Shown: one piece after another, positions 24,037 to 42,558 of the stretch
Numbering within the stretch: the stretch's first letter is position 1
Layout of the letters: the number at the start of each line of letters is the position of its first letter
Source of the DNA: Myxococcales bacterium
Lineage (GTDB): Bacteria; Myxococcota_A; UBA9042; JABWCM01; BTVJ01
DNA length: 50,156 bases
Assembly (NCBI GenBank): GCA_045863395.1
Contig: BTVJ01000053.1
Coordinates: forward strand, 1 to 50,156
Direction of reading: 5' to 3'
Position numbers and translations under genes: made by a program
Notes under the pieces: model-generated
Databases searched by the model: none
What the model saw: only the letters and a program-made list of their open reading frames with translations
What the model was told of the DNA's origin: nothing

Positions 24037-25701
24037 GTGCGTGAGCGACTGTTCCTGCTGGCCGTGGCTGCTTTCCTCGCGTCCTGCGCCGACGACCAGG
24101 TCATCGGCCAAGGGGGGGGCGCCGCCTGCTCCACCTCGAAGGAGTGCGACGGCCGCGTCTGCGACCCGACCACGGCCCAGTGCGTCGACTGTCTGAGCGA
24201 CGCCGACTGCCTGGAGAGCGGGACCTACTGCGCCGGCAAGGTGTGCGAGGCGAAGATCCCGTGCATGTCCGACAAGCAGTGCGCCGGGCAGCTCTGCGAC
24301 GGGGCGCTCCAGTACTGCGTGGACTGCAGCGACGGGTCCCACTGCCCAGCCACCGCCCCGTACTGTGTGCTCCACGTGTGCAGCACGGTCGATGGCGGCT
24401 CGTCGTCGGGTGGAGGTGGCATCGACGTGGACGCGGGCCCGAGCGACGGCAAGCCGGAGAACCCGCGCGGCGGCAAGCCGGACGCCGGCTCCACGGACAC
24501 GAGCGCTCCCTGGACCCCCCCGGAGACCTGCGAGGACAAGGCGGAGTGCGACGACGGCAACCCGTGTACGAAGGAAGCCTGCACCCAGAACAAGTGCTCC
24601 TACGGCTTCGCGGTGGGCGCGGCCTGCGACGACGGCGACGCCTGCACCGACCAGGACGCCTGCGTCCAGGGCGGGGTCTGTGAGGGCGTGGCGAAGGGCT
24701 GCAACGACGGCAACCCCTGCACCAAGGACGTCTGCGACTCCACGACGGGCGACTGTGGGTACCTGCCGGGAAATGAGGGCGCCGACTGCGACGACGGCAA
24801 CGACTGCACGGACAGCGATCGGTGTCAGGGCGGCAAGTGCAAGGGCGACGGCCTGGACTGCGACGACGAGAACCCCTGCACCCAGGACGGCTGTGACCCG
24901 GCTGGGGAGTGCCTCTGGGTGAAGCTGGAGAATGGGGCCCCGTGCGACGACGGCAGCGTGTGCACGGACACGGACTTCTGCAAGGAGGGGGTCTGCATCG
25001 GCAAGTCCGAGAAGTGTGACGACGGCAACGCCTGCACCATCGACTCCTGCGACGTCATCGGCAAGTGCACCCACAGCCCTGTCTCGGGCCCCTGCGACGA
25101 CGGGGACCTGTGCACGGTGGACGACGTGTGCGAGTTCAACAAGTGCAAGGGCTTCAAGGCGGACTGCTCCGATGGCAACCCCTGCACCCAGGACTCCTGC
25201 GACCCCGTCCAGGGCTGTGTCTACAAGCCCCTGGACGGGATCTTCTGCTCGGACGGGGATCTGTGCACCGACAACGACCTCTGCAAGCAGGGGGTCTGCG
25301 TGGGCACCCCGGCCGACTGCGACGACGGCAAGCCGTGCACCGAGGACAAGTGCACGGTCGCCGGGTATTGCAGCCACACGGCCATCACGTCGCCTCCGGG
25401 CGAGCCTGTCTGCAGCGATGGCGACATCTGCACCACCGGTGACCACTGCGAGAGCGGCACCTGCAAGGGCACCGCGCTCCAGTGTCCCCCGGACGGCAAC
25501 CCCTGCACCAGCGACTCGTGCAGCAAGCAGACGGGCCAGTGCTACGCCTTCGTGTCGGCTCCTTGCGACGACGGCAACGAGTGCACCCAGTTCACACAGT
25601 GCAGCACGGTCACCGGGCAGTGCGGGGGCGGCTCGGCGAAGCCCAACGGCACCGCCTGCACCGGCGGGAGCTGCAACGGCGGACAGTGCGTGCTCAAGTA
25701 G
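24037..25701 (+). CDS. Cys-rich lipoprotein with CDDGNPCTxDxC repeats
   Basis: Lipobox FLAS-C and more than 12 tandem CDDG(N/D)xCTxDxC units, resembling Dictyostelium-type CTDC repeats seen in myxobacterial surface proteins. Confidence 0.88.
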   Translation: MRERLFLLAVAAFLASCADDQVIGQGGGAACSTSKECDGRVCDPTTAQCVDCLSDADCLESGTYCAGKVCEAKIPCMSDKQCAGQLCDGALQYCVDCSDGSHCPATAPYCVLHVCSTVDGGSSSGGGGIDVDAGPSDGKPENPRGGKPDAGSTDTSAPWTPPETCEDKAECDDGNPCTKEACTQNKCSYGFAVGAACDDGDACTDQDACVQGGVCEGVAKGCNDGNPCTKDVCDSTTGDCGYLPGNEGADCDDGNDCTDSDRCQGGKCKGDGLDCDDENPCTQDGCDPAGECLWVKLENGAPCDDGSVCTDTDFCKEGVCIGKSEKCDDGNACTIDSCDVIGKCTHSPVSGPCDDGDLCTVDDVCEFNKCKGFKADCSDGNPCTQDSCDPVQGCVYKPLDGIFCSDGDLCTDNDLCKQGVCVGTPADCDDGKPCTEDKCTVAGYCSHTAITSPPGEPVCSDGDICTTGDHCESGTCKGTALQCPPDGNPCTSDSCSKQTGQCYAFVSAPCDDGNECTQFTQCSTVTGQCGGGSAKPNGTACTGGSCNGGQCVLK

Positions 25702-28717: not shown

Positions 28718-29044
28718 TCAGAGGATGTCCGCCAGGTGAGCGAGGGCGATGCGCCGGAGCTTGAGATAGCGGTTGGGGTCGTCGTCTGGCCGGACCAGGC
28801 TCGCCACGACCTCGCCGAGGGGGCGGCCGAAGTGCTTCGCAAACGAGTCGGGCCAGTGGCTGGCCCATGCCGAGAGCCAGGCGACGAGGGCCTCACGCTC
28901 CCTCTCCTGCAGCAGGCTCGGCTGGTCCAGCACAGACGACGCCGCGCGGGCGAGGCTGGATGCATCGGGTGTGGTATCGTCGCGAGGGCGGGCTACCACC
29001 ACGGGCAGCCCTCCACGACGCAGGATGTCCAACGAGGCGCTCAC
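28718..29044 (-). CDS. Hypothetical protein, divergent from the nucleotidyltransferase remnant
   Basis: 108 aa helical ORF ending RYLKLRRIALAHLADIL. Its start is only 14 nt from the divergent ATG at 29059. Confidence 0.5.
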   Translation of the reverse strand: MSASLDILRRGGLPVVVARPRDDTTPDASSLARAASSVLDQPSLLQEREREALVAWLSAWASHWPDSFAKHFGRPLGEVVASLVRPDDDPNRYLKLRRIALAHLADIL

Positions 29045-29410: not shown

Positions 29411-29926
29411 ATGACGGTCGATCACAGCTTGCCGATGTTCGATCCGTCCGCTCGGCCCTTGGCGGGCTCGACCTTGGAGCCGCTCGCTGCCTTCGCTCGG
29501 CAGTGGTCCGGCATGGAGGGGAGCGAGCAGCAGCTCAGTCAGTTCTTCCTGAACGGGCTGTGCGATGCCCTCGGGACTCCGCGGCCCTACAGCGGCGGGG
29601 TCAGCGTCGACGACTACTGCTTCGAGAAGCACGTGGACGTGCCCGACCGCAAGGAGCGTGGGCGCATCGACCTCTACAAGCGTGGCTGCTTCGTGCTCGA
29701 GGCCAAGTGCGGGCGCAACGGCGCCGGTGAGTCCACGGACCCCCTCGGTCAGCTCGCGGACGTCCTGACACTGGTCCAGGCCTCCACCGCGGCGCTGGAC
29801 GCCGAGTCGGTGGCCGCCCACTTCCGCCGCGCCCCGCGAAGGCGAGCGGCGGACCTCCTCGAGCGCCTGGCGACGAGGCGCCTCGTCGTCCTCGACGACA
29901 CGGGCCGCTACCGCGCGCTGGTCTGA
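29411..29926 (+). pseudogene. MmeI-family (type IIL) restriction-modification gene with large internal deletion
   Basis: N-terminal nuclease segment (QFFLNGLCDALG, YCFEK, GRIDLYKRGCFVLEAK) is joined in frame to a C-terminal-like tail (LDAESVAAHFRR...DLLERLA...GRY). Only 171 aa and no methyltransferase motifs. Confidence 0.7.
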
Positions 29927-30355: not shown

Positions 30356-31420
30356 ATGAGCACAGGTCCGGCAACAGCGAGGGGCGAGCTTCGCGCCGTG
30401 GATCTCTTTTCGGGGTGTGGTGGGCTGACACTAGGTCTGAAGCGCGCCGGATTCAAGGTCATCGCGGCCGTCGAGTGCGAGGACGGTGCTGTGGAAGCCT
30501 ACATCCTCAACCATCCTGATGTCGCCAAGGTCTATGCTCAGGACATCCGCGAGGTCTCGGGGAAGCAGATCCTGGATGATGCCGGTCTCGCGGTGGGAGA
30601 GCTCGATCTCCTGGCAGGCTGTCCTCCGTGTCAGGGATTTTCGCGCGTAAACACGCTCAATGGCAAGCGCGGAGAGGATGACTCGAGGAACGACCTGGTC
30701 TACCAGTATCTCCGCCTCGTCGAGGAGTTGAACCCGCTCGCGCTTCTGATGGAGAACGTGCCGGCGCTCATGCAGGATGCCCGCTACGCGACGTTGCGGG
30801 CGCGGGTCTCGGAGCTTGGCTATCACGTCAGCGACGAGGTTCACGACGCCGCCGAGTACGGCGTGCCACAACGGAGGCGACGCCTGATCATGCTGGCAGC
30901 CAAAAACGCGTCGCCGCTGATTCCCGACAAGGTGCCGCAGAACGCCCGCACGACGGTTCGTACGGCTATCGCGTCGCTATCCGAGTCGGCCGGGACCAGC
31001 GGAGATCCTGCGCACGATGTCGCTGCCAAGCGACAGCCTCACGTCGAGGACCTGATCAGGCGCATTCCCCATGACGGAGGCAGCCGGAAAGATCTCGGCG
31101 CCGAGGCACAACTCGAATGTCACAGGAGGTGCGACGGCTTCTTCGACGTGTATGGCCGCATGAAGTGGGACGACGTGTCGCCGACGATCACCAGCGGTTT
31201 CCCAAGCCCTTCGAAGGGCCGGTTCCTACATCCGACCGAAGACCGCACCATCACTCCGCGCGAAGCCGGCCTGTTGCAGACGTTCCCCGATGACTACAAG
31301 TTCCCCATGCGGTTGGGGAAGTATCCAGTCGCGCAGATGATCGGGAACGCGTTGCCGCCGCGACTTGCTGAGGTCCATGCCTCAGCGATTGCAGAGGTGC
31401 TGCGGGCGCCACGCCAGTAG
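30356..31420 (+). CDS. dcm: DNA (cytosine-5)-methyltransferase
   Basis: Motif I DLFSGCGG, IV GCPPCQGFS, VI MENVP, VIII GVPQRRRR, IX REAGLLQTFP, X IGNALPP. Confidence 0.95.
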   Translation: MSTGPATARGELRAVDLFSGCGGLTLGLKRAGFKVIAAVECEDGAVEAYILNHPDVAKVYAQDIREVSGKQILDDAGLAVGELDLLAGCPPCQGFSRVNTLNGKRGEDDSRNDLVYQYLRLVEELNPLALLMENVPALMQDARYATLRARVSELGYHVSDEVHDAAEYGVPQRRRRLIMLAAKNASPLIPDKVPQNARTTVRTAIASLSESAGTSGDPAHDVAAKRQPHVEDLIRRIPHDGGSRKDLGAEAQLECHRRCDGFFDVYGRMKWDDVSPTITSGFPSPSKGRFLHPTEDRTITPREAGLLQTFPDDYKFPMRLGKYPVAQMIGNALPPRLAEVHASAIAEVLRAPRQ

Positions 31421-31424
31421 GCGG

Positions 31425-33098
31425 CTACTCAGTTTCCCGCTTCTTGTCTCGCTTCCTCTTGGACAGGAAGTCCACGCCGATGCGCGAGACGTGCCCTCCG
31501 ACGATGTGCGTGAGGCGCTCCGCATACGGTGCGCGGAGCTGGCAGACCACGATGCACCGCTGCTCCTGCAACGATAGGTCTCCTTGTCCGTCGAGGATGA
31601 CACGCTGCATGGAGACCGTGCCGTCCTTGACGCGCGCGAGGTTGCGCGCGAACACCTGCTCGACTCGCGGGTTCGGGTCGTTCGTGGAGGTGTTGAATAC
31701 GGCTGCTGCCCGGGGCATGGGCTTGTCCGAACTGTAGTCGTCGAAGAAGATGTAGCGACCCTGCTCGGCGGACCCAATGGCAGTTTCATTCTTCACGCTC
31801 ATATCGAGCTGGATGACTGTCATGGCGCGCGTGTCGCCGAGCGACGCTCCCCAGGGATCCACACTCTCCTTTCGCGCCCGCGGCACCATATCGCAGGCAG
31901 GGGTCACGCACACCCAGAACTGCTCGCCGTCCTCTGAGCGGAACACTGTTCCTGTGCGGAGATGGTGGCGATCATGCCTTTGCGAGCAGAGGAACGCGTT
32001 GACGTGAAGAAGGGTGTTGGTGTCCAGCTCATGCGGGGCCTTGGCCGCGGCCGAACTGACGGCCTCGAGGAGACGGTCGCCCATGGACGAAATCGCCGCA
32101 TCGATTCGACGATGAAGAAGGTCAGAGGCCACGTGACGACTTCTTCGCAATCTCTCCTCTTGCTCGGTCGCAGACGTCACATAGCCAATCAAGCCCTTCT
32201 GCAGGGAGTCGTTCGGGAGGTGGAGATCGTCGCGAAAGGCTCCTTCGTTACTCTCGTGCCGCGACCGCGCGATAAGGCACGCGAGCCAGGAGGGGTTCCA
32301 ATCTCTGATGGCGTTCTCGAGACCTGTCAGAAGCATGGTGGCATCGTCGGCGCCTCCTGAGTCTTGCCTCGGCTTTCCAACGACCGCGACGAAGAGGTTC
32401 CCGCATTGGAACCAGCGCTTGTCGTCTTTCGCATGGATCGCCTGCACGGACCTGGTCTCGGCGATGAGGGGCGCGCCATACGTTTTCTTGAGTTCTCGCT
32501 CGACCAGCGCACGCCCTCCCTCAACGTCGGGGTCGCCGGCCACGCCAGCGTTCCTCCACTCAGTCACGAAATCCCGCCTCCACCCATCCTTGCCGGCGAT
32601 GTGAGCAATCAGGGCGTCTTGCGACCAGTCAATCTTCTCCTGCAAATTCGCGACGTCGTCCGAGAGATCTCCTGTGCACAGGTCCTTGCTGACGCCTCGG
32701 GCGTGCGCAGCAAGGTGAAGTAACACGGCGTCCAGGCCGGTATCAGCCGTGTACACCACGACGAGGTTCGGAGATGGGCTGGATGCGAGCTGCTCGATCA
32801 CCCTCAAGGCGGGTGTTGGGTCGCCGGCTGAGAGATGATAGTCGAGCACCAGCAGGTCGCAGGACGCGAGCCGTCGGCATTGTTCCCTGGTCGTCCAGTC
32901 ACTTGCGTTGTCTACGTCGCAGAGCCAGCCCCGGTCGCGGCAAGCGGTCCAGAGCGCTCGAGCGCGGTCCTTCTCATCTCCCGAGTCGGGCTCTGCATAG
33001 GTCGGAAATTGGTCGTCCACGAACAGGACTGACCGGATGGGATCCACGTAGGCCAGAATGGGCAATTCAACGGCGCTCTCGGCGGCTTCACCCAGCAT
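31425..33098 (-). CDS. Atypical response-regulator receiver protein with uncharacterised C-terminal domain
   Basis: VLFVDDQF acidic pocket, LLVLDYHL (putative phospho-Asp), VVVYT. C-terminal TGTVF...VCVTPACDM...QLRxxYA...SRIG domain. Overlaps the kinase stop. Confidence 0.8.
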   Translation of the reverse strand: MLGEAAESAVELPILAYVDPIRSVLFVDDQFPTYAEPDSGDEKDRARALWTACRDRGWLCDVDNASDWTTREQCRRLASCDLLVLDYHLSAGDPTPALRVIEQLASSPSPNLVVVYTADTGLDAVLLHLAAHARGVSKDLCTGDLSDDVANLQEKIDWSQDALIAHIAGKDGWRRDFVTEWRNAGVAGDPDVEGGRALVERELKKTYGAPLIAETRSVQAIHAKDDKRWFQCGNLFVAVVGKPRQDSGGADDATMLLTGLENAIRDWNPSWLACLIARSRHESNEGAFRDDLHLPNDSLQKGLIGYVTSATEQEERLRRSRHVASDLLHRRIDAAISSMGDRLLEAVSSAAAKAPHELDTNTLLHVNAFLCSQRHDRHHLRTGTVFRSEDGEQFWVCVTPACDMVPRARKESVDPWGASLGDTRAMTVIQLDMSVKNETAIGSAEQGRYIFFDDYSSDKPMPRAAAVFNTSTNDPNPRVEQVFARNLARVKDGTVSMQRVILDGQGDLSLQEQRCIVVCQLRAPYAERLTHIVGGHVSRIGVDFLSKRKRDKKRETE

Positions 33099-36000
33099 CT
33101 TGGAGCTCCCGGAAGGTGAGAATGAAGTTGGCCCCTGGGAGGATTCGCTCGTTGGCGCTCGCGAGGCGAATCGCGTGACGGCCTTGCTCTAGAGCGAGAC
33201 GTGACAGGAACAACCCGACGCCGCGCCCGCCGACGCGGCGGGTGAAGAAGAGGTTGAACAGGTCCTCTTCGTCGTCTGGATCGATCCCAGGGCCAGAGTC
33301 GGCGATGTAGATGTCCGGGCCTCGCCGATCCAGGAGTATACTGCGCTCCTGTCGGTGGGTGACCCAATACAGGGCGTTGTTTACCAGATTGACGAACACG
33401 GGGAACACACGGTGCGGGTACTCCGTGACTGCCGTGGAGAGGAACGGCTCCGTGGAGTGGAGCACCACCTTACGTTCGACGAGTTGTCTCTCGAAGAATG
33501 ATCGCAGGTATCTGTCCAGTTCCTCTCCTGTGATGACTCGGCGGGTCCTTGGGCCGGACAGGCGCAACGGGGCAAGGAATTCGAGGCGGTGTACGAGCCA
33601 GCGGAACCCGTCGTCGGCGAGCTTGAAGGCAGGTGTCGTTCGGGCGCTCTGTGGAAGTCGAGCCAGGCTTCTGGAGACCTGACTCGCCGCCTCGTTCAGC
33701 TCGTGTCCTACGATCTCGACCGTGATCCCGAGTTGGGCGAGCTCCTGCCACTGCTCCACCTTGTCGGCGAGCGCAACCTTCCCGTCTATCGCAGAGGCGA
33801 ACGCGGCGTCGAGGTCGATTCCCTCGTGGAGAGCGTCCAGAGTTCGGAGGTATCCCTCGTAGTCGGGCGCGATCTCTTGGTAGATGTGCTCGCGCAAGGC
33901 CTCCATCTCGGCGAGCACCGCGCCAAGCTCCATCCGAGCATCAGCGAGTTCCTTCAGGAGAGGAGCGGCCTTCGGGTAGTAGCGTTGGTTGTCCAAAGTG
34001 ACGCGCGCCATCCACCGCTCCCGCTCCTTGTCGAGGTGGCGCTGGATGGCCGTGCGCCATCGTCCGGTTGCGTCGGTAATTCTCTTCTGGTGTCTCGCCA
34101 ACGCGGACCGTGCGACTTCCTCGGCGGACGCGGTCGTCTGCGCTTCAGTGCGCTCCGACCAGAGGCGACTTGCACGTTCCAGGAGGGCGGTGAAGCGCGC
34201 GTACTGGTCTCGATAGTCGCGGTACCTCTCCTCATCGGTAGCGGTCAGCTTCTTTGGTTTTGGCGGAAGCGCGAGGGCAGCGCGACGCTCCTGGAGTCTG
34301 TGGAGGCGTTCGGCTGTTCGATCCACGTCCAAGGGAGCAGGCGTGTCCTCGAGGATCTTCAGGAACTCGTTCGCCTCGTCGCAGGCGTCGATCAGCATCG
34401 GGCCGTTGTCCCGCATCGCGCGACGAATCGTAGACGTACGCCTCTTCTTGGCGTCAGCCTCTGCCTTCCGCGCTCGCTCATACCGCTCCTGGGTGACCGA
34501 CGTCTCCTCCTTTCGGAGGTCCGCGTCCGATCCGAAGTACCTCCTGGCGAGGGTCCGTAGCAGCTCAACCACCAACAGCTTGAACTCGCGCGCGGCCTGG
34601 TTGTCGATGATACCTTCCCGTCCCGCCTTGTCACGGAGGTGCGGGTTGTCGCGCCGGGTAAGTGCGACGGCGCCGAATGTACGTCGGCTCGCCCAAAACT
34701 CTCGACCCGCATGCATCCCGCGACGTTCCTCCATCCCAAAGAAGTCGTTCTCGGGGCGCCCGTAGGGCTGCACGCGCAGGCCGTCTCTGTACACCGCCAG
34801 TCCACCGAATTGCACTGCTCGCTCCCTCAGTACCCCGAGGACATCGCCGGTGTGCGTGCTGTTCTTCGCGTCCTGTTCGAAGGTACCGAAGGCGATGTCG
34901 AACGGCCCGACGAACCCAACTCCCTTGCGGGGTGGGGGGCGCGTCGGGTTGACCTGCACCTGGCCAAGGTCCTTGCCCCAGGCCCTCACGAGTCCAGTGA
35001 AGACACCGGATTCGTCGAATCGGCCCTCGACCCCATGCTCAAGCTCGCGCAGATCGTCGAGGCTGAAGGTCTCCTCGGTTGCGACGATGGTGGTCAGTAC
35101 CTCGCCCCGGTGCGCAGTAGCCGCGTATCGAAAGTCGAGGCGTGACGGTGCGTAGGGATTGCTGAAGCCGGTCAGGGTCCACTTCAGCTTTCTGCGGTTC
35201 TCCTGAACCTCTGGATCGTCCGTGGTTGCGTCTTGTTCCACCCAGACTCGGAGTTCGCGCACGGCGTCGAAGATGAACATGGCCGTTCCGCGGTCGGTCT
35301 CGCCGGTCCACGCAGGCCACGTGCGCAGGTGCTCCGCCTCCAAGTGCCCCTGCAGCGCCAGATTTGCGATGCTGTCAGCGGTAGGCACGTCGTCTCGCGC
35401 TCGCTCATCTTCTGAGAAGCGGTTCCACGCCTGCTCCAGACGCTCCTGGCGTGCGCGGTCGTCGCTGTTGCCCCACACGTTATCGATGAGGCCGTCGAAC
35501 AGGCTATCGATGACCTTGTCGAGGTGGGCTCGGTTGTCGAGGGTCTCGACGGGTATGCGGACGTCGTCCAGCGCGAGGTAGGGGTTCTGGAACAGCCTCC
35601 AATCGATCAGAGCGGCGATGATCGGGCCTGACGCCCGCTTGGTCAGCACGAGGACCGTGTTGCCCAGGTAGGCCACGGAGAGACGCCCAATGCCCTTCTG
35701 GCCCTGACGTGGACGGGGCGCGAGGCCGTCCCGATCACCCTGTGGAACGACATCGTCGATGACCTTGGCCTCTGTCCCGAGCATGAGCCAACGCTCGATG
35801 AACTCTGCCTCGGACATGCCGTGGCCGTCGTCGACCACAGCGGCGACTGGCGGGTTGCCAATGAAGATGTGGAGCTCGGCCCGTCGTGCGTAGGCATCGT
35901 ACGCGTTCTTCCAGAGCTCGCTTACCGCGGTCGGGCAGTCCGCTATCTGTTCTCGGCCAAGATGGTCGACCGTGCGAGCGCGAGCTCTAAAGGGGATGCG

Positions 36001-36156
36001 AGCCAAGTCAGGTGTCCATGCGGCGAGAGGTTCGGGGCGCTGGGAACCGTGAGAGCCTACGGCCGCAGCGGGGTGATCGCAAGGGGCCAGGTCGACTGAG
36101 CGGCACGGCGCCGCGCTGGCCGATCCGGCAGGAGGTGCGCACGAGCCCACCGACAT
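33088..36156 (-). CDS. MORC/MutL-like GHKL ATPase fused to a C-terminal histidine kinase
   Basis: N-terminal HLGREQI, SELWKNAYDA, DDGHGM, GQKGIGRL; S5-like YRDGLRVQPYG; coiled coil; C-terminal IVGHEL, NLVNNALYW, DSGPGI, FFTRR...GRGVGL. The real start may be the TTG at 36006. Confidence 0.88.
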   Translation of the reverse strand: MSVGSCAPPAGSASAAPCRSVDLAPCDHPAAAVGSHGSQRPEPLAAWTPDLARIPFRARARTVDHLGREQIADCPTAVSELWKNAYDAYARRAELHIFIGNPPVAAVVDDGHGMSEAEFIERWLMLGTEAKVIDDVVPQGDRDGLAPRPRQGQKGIGRLSVAYLGNTVLVLTKRASGPIIAALIDWRLFQNPYLALDDVRIPVETLDNRAHLDKVIDSLFDGLIDNVWGNSDDRARQERLEQAWNRFSEDERARDDVPTADSIANLALQGHLEAEHLRTWPAWTGETDRGTAMFIFDAVRELRVWVEQDATTDDPEVQENRRKLKWTLTGFSNPYAPSRLDFRYAATAHRGEVLTTIVATEETFSLDDLRELEHGVEGRFDESGVFTGLVRAWGKDLGQVQVNPTRPPPRKGVGFVGPFDIAFGTFEQDAKNSTHTGDVLGVLRERAVQFGGLAVYRDGLRVQPYGRPENDFFGMEERRGMHAGREFWASRRTFGAVALTRRDNPHLRDKAGREGIIDNQAAREFKLLVVELLRTLARRYFGSDADLRKEETSVTQERYERARKAEADAKKRRTSTIRRAMRDNGPMLIDACDEANEFLKILEDTPAPLDVDRTAERLHRLQERRAALALPPKPKKLTATDEERYRDYRDQYARFTALLERASRLWSERTEAQTTASAEEVARSALARHQKRITDATGRWRTAIQRHLDKERERWMARVTLDNQRYYPKAAPLLKELADARMELGAVLAEMEALREHIYQEIAPDYEGYLRTLDALHEGIDLDAAFASAIDGKVALADKVEQWQELAQLGITVEIVGHELNEAASQVSRSLARLPQSARTTPAFKLADDGFRWLVHRLEFLAPLRLSGPRTRRVITGEELDRYLRSFFERQLVERKVVLHSTEPFLSTAVTEYPHRVFPVFVNLVNNALYWVTHRQERSILLDRRGPDIYIADSGPGIDPDDEEDLFNLFFTRRVGGRGVGLFLSRLALEQGRHAIRLASANERILPGANFILTFRELQDAG

Positions 36157-36215: not shown

Positions 36216-36548
36216 TCAGGCCGTGGTCGCCGCCTTCTTCTTCGGTCGCTTGCGCTCCGAGGTCCGAACGCCGCCGACCAGCTCGTACTCCGTTGAGTCC
36301 GGTCCGTACTTGCCCTTTGTGGCGGCGCGGATGCGCGTGACGAGGTTCGTGAGGTCCTTGTTGGCCGCCTTGCGGTCGTTCGACGCCTTGGTCAGCGCGG
36401 CCCGCGCCGACGTGGAGGCGTCGACGGCCTGGGAGCGCCGGGCCGCCGCCTGCGCGAACGCGTCCTTCGTGAGGCCGTCTCCGAGGGCGAGGTTGCCGCT
36501 GTCGAAGGCTTCGAGGATCTTCTTTACGGTGTCGTCGATGACTGCCAT
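36216..36548 (-). CDS. Small helical basic protein with YGPDSTEYELVGG...SERKRP motif
   Basis: ATG 36548 with a strong AGGAGG RBS. 110 aa, amphipathic helices, Lys/Arg-rich tail, GC-rich codon usage. Confidence 0.8.
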   Translation of the reverse strand: MAVIDDTVKKILEAFDSGNLALGDGLTKDAFAQAAARRSQAVDASTSARAALTKASNDRKAANKDLTNLVTRIRAATKGKYGPDSTEYELVGGVRTSERKRPKKKAATTA

Positions 36549-40378: not shown

Positions 40379-42406
40379 CTACGGGTACACGGGCGGGATC
40401 CCCGGCACGCCCACGTCCACCTCGAAGACGCCCTTGTTCCAGCCATCCGGCAGGTACATCTTGTCGACCGCCCAGCCGCCGAGGCCCGAGCCCCACTGCA
40501 TGTTCGGCAGGTAGATGTTGCCGCCCCCCGAGCCGCTGATCACCGTCTTGTACGAGGAGCCGTCGGGGGTGAACCGGTAGACCTTGGTGGCATAGTAGTC
40601 GGCGATGTAGAGGTTGCCGCAGACGTCGATGCCGATGCCGTCGAGCCAGCCCGTGCCCACGTTCTTCGCCCAGGCGACCGGCGCGTCCACGGTGCCGTCG
40701 GGGTGGATCTGGAACATGTAGATGGTGCCGACCCCGCTGAAGCCCGCCACGAAGACCTGGGAGTAGTCTGCGTTGAAGCAGATGCCGTTCGGGTTCTTGA
40801 TGGTCCCCTGGCTGATCACCTTCGACGTCTTCGCGTAGGGGTCCACCTTGAGAACGCGGTTGGCGTCGTGCTCCGTGACCCACGCGAAGCCGTGCTTGTC
40901 GATGGCCATTCCGTTCGGGTAGGCGAGGTTGCTCAGGACCACGTACTGCGTGCCGTCAGGGGTGATGCGGATGAGCTGCCCCGTCGTGTCCTTGTTGACC
41001 ATGAGGTCGCCCGTCGGCAGGTAGCGCATGCCGGCGCGGAAATTGATGCTCGGCACGAACACCTGGGGGGTGCCTCCGTACTTGGTCTTGAAGATCGCCT
41101 TGTCGTTGGAGCCCACCACGTTGCCTGCGTCGTCGAAGGCCAGGTCCTCCGAGGCCATGGGGCCCGACAGCTTCTTGAGCTGGAATGGTCCCGGTGGAAC
41201 CGTGGCGCAGTCGAAGGTGCACTCGCCGCAGGAGCCGCCGCAGCCATCGTCGCCACAGGTCTTCCCGGCGCAGCTCGGCACGCAGGCCGCGCACAGGCCC
41301 GCGGCGTCGCACTTGGTGGTGCCCGGGCACGTGCCGCAGGAGCCGCCGCAGCCATCGCCGCCGCACTGCTTGCCGTCGCACTTTGGGGTGCACGCGGTGC
41401 ACTGCCCCGCCTCGCACTGGAAGCCCGGCCCGCAGGAGCCACAGGAGCCGCCGCAGCCGTCGTCGCCGCACTGCTTGCCGCTGCACTTGGGCGTGCAGCA
41501 CTTGTTGGGGTAGGAGCTCGCGCAGCTCGTGCAGATGTCGTCGCAGCAGTCTCCGTACTGGAAGCACGCGTTGTCGCAGTAGCACTTGCAGCCTGGGCCG
41601 CAGGACTGCTCGCTCTGCGAGCCGCACTTGCCTGCGCAGAGCGTCGACACGCACTGGCCAGCCGTACAGGTCTGGCCGCCTGCGCAAGAGCCGCAGGAGC
41701 CGCCGCAGCCATCGTCGCCACACGCCTTCCCGGCGCACTGCGGCTGGCACGCGCACGAGTTGTCGACGCACGGCCCCCCACCAGGGCACGCGCCGCACTC
41801 GAGGGTGCCGCCACAGCCATCGTCCAGCTCACCGCACGTCGCGCCCGCGGTGGGGCAGGTGAGCGGCGCACAGCCGCAGCGGTTCGGGAAGGTGATACCG
41901 CACGCCTGACCCGCCGGGCACGCCCCGCAGTCCAGGGTGCCGCCGCACCCGTCCTGCATTGTTCCACACTCGTCCTCGTCGCAGGGGATGGGTTCGCACG
42001 GCGCGGGCCCGCAGCGATTTGCCACCGAGGCCCCGCACACCAGGTCGTCGGGGCACGTGCCGCAGTCGACGGTGTCGCCGCAGCCGTTGGCGAGCAGTCC
42101 GCACTGCGCGCCCGCAACGGCGCAGGTCACCGAGACGCATCCGACGTCCGCGCCGGTGCCGCCCGTCCCGTCGTCCGGCGTGCCACCTGCCCCTGCGTCA
42201 GGCGTCAGCGCCCCTCCGTCGTCACTGGGCTTCACGGGTCCGGGGCCGTCGGCAGACTGCCCGCCCCCTGCGCCGGTGTCACCCGCGACGTTGACGAAGT
42301 GCCCTGGATCGACCGCCGTGACACCCGGCTCCGTGGTCCCTGAGCAGGCCGCGAGGGTAACTGTGGTCCAGAGGCAGAGTGCGCGAAGTGCGCGAAGATC
42401 GGTCAT
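40379..42406 (-). CDS. Cys-rich lipoprotein with somatomedin-B-like module and C-terminal SMP-30/gluconolactonase-like beta-propeller
   Basis: Lipobox LAA-C, CGxDGCGGSCGxC repeats, CYCDNACFQYGDCCDD, and propeller blades SEDLAFD, YPNGMAID, NPNGICFN, LDGIGIDVCGNLY. Confidence 0.82.
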   Translation of the reverse strand: MTDLRALRALCLWTTVTLAACSGTTEPGVTAVDPGHFVNVAGDTGAGGGQSADGPGPVKPSDDGGALTPDAGAGGTPDDGTGGTGADVGCVSVTCAVAGAQCGLLANGCGDTVDCGTCPDDLVCGASVANRCGPAPCEPIPCDEDECGTMQDGCGGTLDCGACPAGQACGITFPNRCGCAPLTCPTAGATCGELDDGCGGTLECGACPGGGPCVDNSCACQPQCAGKACGDDGCGGSCGSCAGGQTCTAGQCVSTLCAGKCGSQSEQSCGPGCKCYCDNACFQYGDCCDDICTSCASSYPNKCCTPKCSGKQCGDDGCGGSCGSCGPGFQCEAGQCTACTPKCDGKQCGGDGCGGSCGTCPGTTKCDAAGLCAACVPSCAGKTCGDDGCGGSCGECTFDCATVPPGPFQLKKLSGPMASEDLAFDDAGNVVGSNDKAIFKTKYGGTPQVFVPSINFRAGMRYLPTGDLMVNKDTTGQLIRITPDGTQYVVLSNLAYPNGMAIDKHGFAWVTEHDANRVLKVDPYAKTSKVISQGTIKNPNGICFNADYSQVFVAGFSGVGTIYMFQIHPDGTVDAPVAWAKNVGTGWLDGIGIDVCGNLYIADYYATKVYRFTPDGSSYKTVISGSGGGNIYLPNMQWGSGLGGWAVDKMYLPDGWNKGVFEVDVGVPGIPPVYP

Positions 42407-42558
42407 GGGAGGTGCCCCGCGGGTGAGTGGTTGGCAGCGCGACGATGATACCGACCGCTCGATGTGGCGGCGGTCCTTCAAACCTTGCGTCTATTCTACA
42501 TGGCGCTTGCCCCGGGCCCCAGAGCTGGAATACCATGGCTTGCCTCCAGGAGGGCGGG

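What the first reader, a model, noticed from the sequence alone, without database searches (positions are those of the whole stretch)
30356..36156. Nuclease-less methyltransferase + MORC-histidine kinase + receiver-effector module: candidate phosphorelay-controlled defence system
Seen: one polypeptide carries two ATP-binding GHKL folds, an N-terminal MORC/MutL-like ATPase with an S5-like region and coiled coil plus a C-terminal histidine kinase with an intact H-box (GHEL). It overlaps a receiver protein, and this pair converges on an intact C5 methyltransferase with only 4 nt between the stops. No restriction endonuclease or Vsr is recognisable. Established: prokaryotic MORC-type ATPases are associated with restriction-modification loci, and some are fused to histidine kinases, but to my knowledge the mechanism is uncharacterised. 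Inference: the MORC clamp senses DNA (for example unmethylated invader DNA), the kinase phosphorylates the receiver, and the receiver's C-terminal domain acts as effector, with the methyltransferase marking self.
Basis: partly seen in the sequence, partly recalled or inferred. Interest (0 to 1): 0.82.

Follow-up and report, generated by a model that had tools for sequence, protein, structure and literature searches.

The report
MORC-kinase relay replacing a restriction nuclease
These three horizontally acquired genes (a cytosine methylase, a MORC-type ATPase fused to a histidine kinase, and a receiver protein) belong to a family described computationally in 2021 for which I found no bench test, and they likely form a defence cassette in which phosphorylation would switch on the receiver's own predicted toxin-like domain in place of a restriction nuclease.

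Summary
In detail: all three genes, catalytic motifs, the 11-nt overlap and the 4-nt gap are as described. The design is known: HATPase_c_3 + HEF_HK + HATPase_c kinase, Response_reg_2 receiver and C5 methylase (PMC8011034; noted in PMC2441816). This scan has reported the family on other DNA several times. A validated cousin, Ambrosia (2025), uses an N6 methylase, a wHTH receiver and an HNH nuclease, so this is not Ambrosia.

New here: (1) Lacking a nuclease is the family norm: 12 of 58 long-flank relatives have a recognisable non-Vsr nuclease, so it is not a broken system. (2) The same methylase clade also partners GHKL proteins ending in a restriction-nuclease or Ymh/HEPN domain, so kinase plus receiver fill the effector slot. 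(3) The receiver's C-terminal barrel has a near-invariant Cys-Asp/Arg and resembles PemK/MazF in predicted structure (TM 0.70 by target). That is only a lead: profile comparison found nothing.

Best model (0.45): a DNA-sensing clamp triggers a one-way phosphorelay that activates a toxic effector. 'Methylase marks self' is untested, and it failed for Ambrosia. New member of a known, mechanistically open kind; interest 0.5.

The parts
30356..31420 (+). C5 cytosine methyltransferase, 354 aa, PPCQ catalytic motif; target-recognition segment shared with methylases of GHKL-nuclease and GHKL-Ymh systems
   Evidence: PF00145 and TIGR00675; TRD alignment; partners and tree
31425..33098 (-). Response_reg_2 receiver protein, 557 aa: CheY-like receiver (D28, D29, D86, T117, K242) with a large helical insertion, a helical linker, and a C-terminal beta-rich domain
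31464..31985 (-). Receiver C-terminal domain (residues 372-545), candidate effector with the C-x-T-P-x-C-D and S-R-I-G motifs; predicted PemK/MazF-like barrel (lead only)
   Evidence: C402 264/266, D403 262/266, R539 263/266, G541 264/266; Atlas structure hit to PemK cluster, TM 0.70 by target and 0.42-0.47 by query, under the tool's naming bar; no profile signal
33088..36006 (-). paraMORC-like GHKL+S5 ATPase (E30, N34, K460), about 290-aa coiled coil, HEF_HK H-box (H768-E769) and kinase CA domain; 972 aa from TTG 36006
   Evidence: PF13589, PF19191, PF02518; Foldseek best hits MORC2, SMCHD1, MORC3 (E about 1e-9) and histidine kinases; named catalytic residues 67/67 except E769 64/67
29414..29926 (+). 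Flanking, not part of the system: remnant of an MmeI-like type IIG gene (nuclease N-terminus joined to a short tail)
   Evidence: PF20464 38.3 bits, PADLOC IIG E 2e-20; two paralogous N-termini elsewhere in the genome, no hit in the 80 related loci

Best explanation
This is an intact, horizontally acquired three-gene cassette that likely defends against phage or plasmid DNA: the MORC-type clamp is predicted to sense incoming DNA, would drive autophosphorylation of H768 through the coiled coil and transfer to D86, and this would switch on the receiver's C-terminal Cys-Asp barrel as a toxic, possibly RNase-like effector, with the methylase likely masking the host's own sites. Shown: genes, folds of the ATPase, kinase and receiver, conserved catalytic residues, foreign codon usage, fixed linkage, usual absence of a nuclease, and the same methylase clade partnering nuclease- or HEPN-tipped GHKL proteins. 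Inferred: DNA sensing, phosphotransfer, effector activity, self-marking and defence itself. The H-box has no Thr/Asn at H+4 here (E772), which suggests kinase without phosphatase, that is a one-way trigger (inferred, from a passage in 10.64898/2026.02.27.708494).
For: Linkage: receiver gene in 79 of 80 relatives, C5 methylase within 1.5 kb in 75 of 80. No dedicated nuclease: Pfam-recognised non-Vsr R-M-type nuclease or helicase-nuclease within two ORFs in 17 of 80 loci and 12 of 58 with long flanks; the commonest type (HNH_2) is in 5 of 80. Several cassettes sit alone between housekeeping genes (L047 guaA/draT, L020, L011, L077). Effector slot: of 80 methylase-anchored loci, 42 have a GHKL neighbour: 8 kinase fusions, 11 HgiDII/BbrUII-like nuclease tails, 3 Ymh, 1 Mrr-like, 19 unassigned or cut off. 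These partners interleave on a 44-sequence methylase tree, and the window methylase is 47-54% identical to methylases with nuclease or Ymh partners. PMC3710099 (passages) proposes GHKL-Ymh fusions as PrrC/RloC-like RNase back-ups. VcSduA, a GHKL-nuclease, needs its ATPase Glu for defence (PMC12137116, passages). Ambrosia needs its receiver Asp. Purifying selection on both ATPase sites, the relay and the C-terminal Cys-Asp. GC3 0.75-0.77 against 0.95-0.96 in host genes; 4 of 401 phylum genomes carry the domain.
Against: No PADLOC model for the receiver and only a weak N-terminal REase_II hit for the kinase. The MazF likeness rests on one predicted-to-predicted match under the tool's bar; hhalign against 29 PemK sequences scored at or below the shuffled medians in the local comparisons and within the shuffled range in global mode, and by my manual register the MazF catalytic Arg and Thr (positions recalled) are not conserved. 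No palindrome is clearly avoided in the cassettes relative to flanks, as restriction would tend to cause. In Ambrosia the methylase did not protect phage and no host toxicity was seen. Pfam misses many type II nucleases, so some unassigned neighbours may be cognate enzymes. Six of 80 loci have a split kinase or receiver. The methylase-anchored set was drawn partly with a TRD peptide, so its TRD uniformity is biased.
Confidence: 0.45

Rival explanations
1. Ambrosia-like logic: the relay responds to infection and the methylase is not a self mark but works with a modification-dependent (type IV) nuclease encoded nearby or in trans, or is itself the regulated output.
For: Ambrosia behaves so. The nucleases that do occur next to relatives are often type IV-like: HNH_2 in 5 loci, AspBHI/Mrr in L058, Mrr in L068, and an HNH annotated as phosphorothioate-binding in E. 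coli SF-166. PMC8011034 proposed regulation of R-M systems.
Against: Most relatives have no such neighbour (46 of 58 long-flank loci). No HTH family was detected in the receiver and its C-terminal domain is a beta-rich barrel. No XRE gene lies beside the window cassette.
Confidence: 0.2
2. Direct restriction: the activated receiver domain (or an unassigned part of the kinase) attacks invader DNA at the clamp, and the cell survives.
For: Kinase plus receiver stand where a PD-(D/E)xK nuclease stands in sister systems. REBASE listed a GHKL-kinase protein (R.EcoUTORF4938P) as a putative restriction enzyme (PMC2441816, passage). VcSduA and Ambrosia protect without killing.
Against: No nuclease motif or fold was detected in either protein. 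A diffusible two-protein relay suits amplification to a cell-wide response better than local cutting (inference).
Confidence: 0.15
3. Selfish addiction module: loss of the cassette dilutes methylation, and the remaining kinase and receiver kill the cell; phage defence is incidental. Compatible with the best model.
For: Insertions among IS elements, integrases and relaxases; patchy distribution.
Against: Rare on plasmids: 3 of 72,556 records for the kinase and 0 plasmid places among 212 E. coli matches.
Confidence: 0.1
4. A broken R-M system that lost its nuclease, or a stress sensor unrelated to defence (for example an NTP sensor, as speculated in PMC8011034).
For: Decayed neighbours in the same island (MmeI remnant, AbiEii-like fragment). 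Genes were upregulated in planta in Pectobacterium.
Against: All three frames are intact, catalytic residues are conserved, and the nuclease-free state is the family norm. The fixed link to a methylase clade of R-M systems argues for conflict biology.
Confidence: 0.1

Closest known systems
HEF_HK (PF19191) / Response_reg_2 (PF19192) two-component-like pair linked to C5 methylases, Bellieny-Rabelo et al. 2021 (PMC8011034; read parts 1-5 of 7, abstract to methods; supplements not read)
   Same: Group 1 architecture HATPase_c_3 + HEF_HK + HATPase_c, adjacent Response_reg_2 gene, C5 methylase, frequent Vsr in relatives.
   Different: The paper is computational, proposes regulation of R-M systems and assigns no domain to the receiver's C-terminal half. 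Here the methylase is convergent, a minority layout (6 of 80) shared with the three closest relatives.
Ambrosia (AbrR-AbrA-AbrB-AbrC-AbrD), bioRxiv 10.1101/2025.09.30.679545 (passages read; supplements closed)
   Same: Methylase + kinase/HSP90-like ATPase + receiver in one validated anti-phage cluster; receiver Asp essential.
   Different: Ambrosia has an N6 methylase, an XRE regulator, a wHTH receiver and a type IV HNH nuclease, and methylation does not protect phage. Here: C5 methylase, no XRE, no HNH, and a beta-barrel output domain. Homology of AbrB to this kinase was not testable.
GHKL-tipped restriction enzymes and paraMORC systems: HgiDII/BbrUII family (NF050001), paraMORC-Ymh, VcSduA (PMC2441816, PMC2292703, PMC3710099, PMC12137116; passages read)
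   Same: N-terminal GHKL+S5 module (NF050001 hit E 1.8e-15 on the ATPase part); same methylase clade and Vsr (L125).
   Different: Their effector (PD-(D/E)xK nuclease or HEPN) is fused to the clamp. Here a coiled coil, a histidine kinase and a separate receiver protein take that place.
Type 1F Shedu (PMC10441436, passages)
   Same: Predicted receiver-gated immune effector beside a histidine kinase.
   Different: The effector is a DUF4263 nuclease; it is predicted only; no DUF4263 here.
PemK/MazF toxins (PF02452)
   Same: Predicted barrel with a similar order of strands and a final helix; 99 residues aligned to a 106-aa model, TM 0.70 by target.
   Different: No sequence signal, larger domain with insertions, a different conserved set (Cys-Asp, Arg-x-Gly), fused to a receiver, no antitoxin gene.

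Membership tests
HEF_HK / Response_reg_2 pair | HATPase_c_3 + HEF_HK + HATPase_c in one soluble protein, with H-box His and acidic neighbour | tested here: met
   All three domains above Pfam cut-off; H768 67/67, E769 64/67
HEF_HK / Response_reg_2 pair | Adjacent Response_reg_2 gene with DD, Asp, Thr and Lys | tested here: met
   [not shown]
HEF_HK / Response_reg_2 pair | Neighbouring C5 methylase | tested here: met
   4 nt from the receiver stop
HEF_HK / Response_reg_2 pair | Actual phosphotransfer | not testable with these tools
   Needs biochemistry; no test found in the ten paper searches
Ambrosia | N6-adenine methylase AbrA | tested here: not met
   C5 cytosine methylase
Ambrosia | XRE regulator and type IV HNH nuclease in the cluster | tested here: not met
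   No such Pfam hit among the flanking ORFs scanned
Ambrosia | Receiver with wHTH output domain | tested here: inconclusive
   No HTH family hit; C-terminal domain mostly beta; the helical middle region was not searched alone
Ambrosia | Kinase homologous to AbrB | not testable with these tools
   AbrB sequence and HMM are in supplements that I could not see
PemK/MazF | MazF barrel fold | tested here: inconclusive
   Atlas TM 0.70 by target, 0.42-0.47 by query, under the naming bar; whole-model PDB searches listed only receivers; the domain was not folded alone
PemK/MazF | Sequence similarity to PF02452 | tested here: not met
   No Pfam hit in 60 members; hhalign probability at most 0.15%
PemK/MazF | Homodimer with RNase activity | not tested
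HgiDII/BbrUII restriction enzymes | GHKL fused to a C-terminal nuclease | tested here: not met
   NF050001 56.6 bits against cut-off 550, ATPase part only; C-terminus is a kinase

The most novel reading that the evidence does not exclude
A methylation-blind-spot alarm: a MORC clamp reads the absence of 5mC at a fixed site, converts it through a histidine-kinase relay into activation of a new class of MazF-fold enzyme with a Cys-Asp active site, and arrests the cell. This would be restriction-modification turned into a signalling abortive-infection system with no DNase, and would give a function to a receiver output domain present in at least 744 clusters at 50% identity.
Probability: 0.25. Interest if true: 0.8.

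Novelty: new member of a known kind. Interest (0 to 1): 0.5.

Why it matters
The family is widespread (644 regions in PMC8011034; 212 of 5426 E. coli genomes match a relative's kinase gene, 7 of them over 80% of its length) and I found no experimental test of it. Showing that it normally lacks a nuclease, that kinase and receiver occupy the effector slot of GHKL restriction systems, and naming candidate active-site residues (C402, D403, R539) makes the question directly testable with three genes in laboratory E. coli. It would also address how bacterial MORC ATPases read DNA methylation.

Tried and rejected
1. Target site from motif avoidance: Markov and synonymous-shuffle tests over 235 genes found no palindrome depleted well beyond the flanks; GTCGAC (the recalled HgiDII/BbrUII site) was 0.76 in cassettes against 0.67 in flanks. 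Target unknown; the nuclease beside the 52%-identical methylase in L125 scores 219 bits, under the family cut-off.
2. Sequence bridge to MazF: hhalign with three query sets (60, 266 and 11 or 5 rows) against 29 PemK sequences gave no signal. Searches with the domain profile returned unnamed proteins that look like fragments or members of the same family; only the best 150 of 744 representatives were listed.
PDB sequence searches with receiver profiles found nothing significant.
4. A homodimer prediction of the C-terminal domain could not be run (tool not available); no verdict.
5. Druantia II / DISARM membership: the best PADLOC hit of the methylase is DruM2, but no other gene of those systems hit; rejected.
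6. RNA run X16 holds short exact pieces of all three genes, but these are contigs at depth about 3 and cannot show transcription. No credible empty-site joint was seen.
7. DefensePredictor and Mordret et al. preprints: no occurrence of the terms searched. PMC7159879 and PMC12839542 passages were not about this family. One DOI guess gave an unrelated paper.
8. L124, the only locus over the NF050001 cut-off, has no C5 methylase hit within 12 kb, so not every such nuclease has this partner.
Full report
1. Observation. The three ORFs are at the stated places, with a 4-nt gap between the convergent stops and an 11-nt kinase-receiver overlap. Pfam gives DNA_methylase; Response_reg_2; and HATPase_c_3 + HEF_HK + HATPase_c, all above cut-off. 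Close homologues match the kinase only from about residue 51, so the start is probably TTG 36006 (972 aa); kinase numbering below uses that start. The cassette is foreign: GC3 is 0.75-0.77 against 0.95-0.96 for the flanking sigma factor, clpB and acyl-CoA dehydrogenase genes. It is single-copy in the genome. Its receiver C-terminal domain occurs in 4 of 401 genomes searched in the phylum, this one included.

3. Is the missing nuclease an accident? I took the best 80 of 123 confirmed kinase loci from GTDB genomes. A receiver gene follows in 79; the other locus ends inside the kinase. A C5 methylase lies within 1.5 kb in 75: upstream in 65, convergent in 6 (including the three closest relatives), downstream in 4 (two of the last are distant methylases, one belonging to an HpaII-type pair). 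Vsr occurs in 35. I scanned 290 flanking ORFs (two each side, chosen by a longest-ORF rule; three over 1200 aa left out, a few swapped by hand for the overlapping Vsr or gyrB frame). By my tally 17 of 80 loci, and 12 of 58 with long flanks, have a recognisable R-M-type nuclease or helicase-nuclease other than Vsr; housekeeping nucleases, transposases and TA toxins were not counted, and L026 was assigned by BLAST similarity. No type exceeds 5 of 80. Pfam can miss type II enzymes, but several cassettes sit directly between housekeeping genes. E. coli shows both forms: with an HNH gene and alone among IS elements.

4. What does the relay replace? The methylase target-recognition segment is nearly uniform across the family. 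A 52%-identical methylase with the same segment lies upstream of a GHKL protein ending in a D...ExK nuclease motif, followed by Vsr (L125). Among 80 methylase-anchored metagenome loci (drawn partly with a TRD peptide, many short or near-identical), 42 have a GHKL neighbour: 8 kinase fusions, 11 HgiDII/BbrUII-like tails, 3 Ymh, 1 Mrr-like, and 19 unassigned or cut off; 38 have none in the DNA held. On a FastTree of 44 methylases (midpoint root, no formal test) the partner types interleave. The simplest reading is a methylase + GHKL-S5 platform with swappable outputs: DNase, HEPN RNase (proposed PrrC/RloC-like in PMC3710099), or kinase plus receiver. This is the main support for calling the receiver's C-terminal domain the effector. 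It remains inference.

5. What is the effector? In the Atlas structure search the only named family besides the protein's own was PemK/MazF: 99 residues aligned to a 106-aa model, TM 0.70 by target and 0.42-0.47 by query, below the tool's bar for naming. Stand-alone proteins of about 180 aa with the same predicted fold exist (TM about 0.6). The order of strands and the final helix in my model fit MazF by eye (MazF topology recalled). Against: no Pfam hit, no profile signal, and the recalled MazF catalytic Arg and Thr positions are variable. If the fold is right, the chemistry or target probably differs, for example a Cys-based enzyme or a protein-binding poison like CcdB (recalled).

6. Prior art. 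PMC2441816 (passage) noted a GHKL-kinase fusion listed as a putative restriction enzyme in 2008. PMC8011034 (parts 1-5 of 7) defined both Pfam domains, the linkage and the methylase association, without experiments and without assigning the output domain. Ambrosia (passages) is a validated methylase-kinase-receiver-HNH system; its methylase did not protect phage and it was not toxic, which lowers my confidence in self-marking and in abortive infection. Type 1F Shedu is a predicted receiver-gated nuclease. Ten searches found no bench study of the C5/HEF_HK/Response_reg_2 form and no mention of a MazF-like output. The library lacks most subscription journals, the Ambrosia paper itself was missed by these searches, and the supplements of PMC8011034 and of the Ambrosia preprint, which may bear on family overlap, were not seen. 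Earlier notes of this scan report the family repeatedly; one mentions a predicted RNase regulator, which I could not inspect.

7. Verdict. A real, intact member of a described but mechanistically open family, not Ambrosia itself. Most likely a defence cassette in which a MORC clamp triggers a phosphorelay that activates the receiver's own effector domain (0.45). Rivals are Ambrosia-like logic (0.2), direct restriction (0.15), addiction (0.1) and a broken or non-defence role (0.1). Novelty: new member of a known kind. Interest 0.5.

Noticed in passing
window 29414-29926 (+): MmeI-type nuclease N-terminus joined to a short C-terminal tail, apparently an internally deleted type IIG gene; 77-82% identical N-termini on contigs C31 and C155.
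   Followed up: partly
window 28718-29044 (-) and 29059-about 29340 (+): AbiEii-like nucleotidyltransferase fragment and an overlapping divergent ORF, both with a paralogous pair on contig C48 (76-78%); possibly a decayed type IV toxin-antitoxin pair.
   Followed up: partly
window 36216-36548 (-): 110-aa helical ORF upstream of the kinase, host-like GC3 (0.91), with a paralogue on C9 and no hit in the 80 related loci; no Pfam family.
   Followed up: partly
L010, L036, L043, L059, L074: Five unrelated genomes carry the cassette right after gyrB: an insertion hot spot or a functional link to gyrase.
   Followed up: no
L147, L149, L151: Second-clade kinases of about 1120-1130 aa with an extra N-terminal domain of about 130 aa before the GHKL fold, possibly a DNA-modification reader; also convergent on the methylase.
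   Followed up: no
[not shown]
   Followed up: no
L191, L193-L208: Gut-metagenome methylase clade beside Vsr and a 646-aa GHKL protein whose C-terminus has no Pfam family.
   Followed up: no
phage records AJ304858.2 and LN997803.1: Two E. coli phage records carry a truncated kinase homologue (62% coverage), one annotated as a remnant integrative element.
   Followed up: no
window 24037-25701 (+) and 40379-42481 (-): Cys-rich repeat lipoprotein-like ORFs of the kind typical of myxobacteria (family recalled).
   Followed up: no
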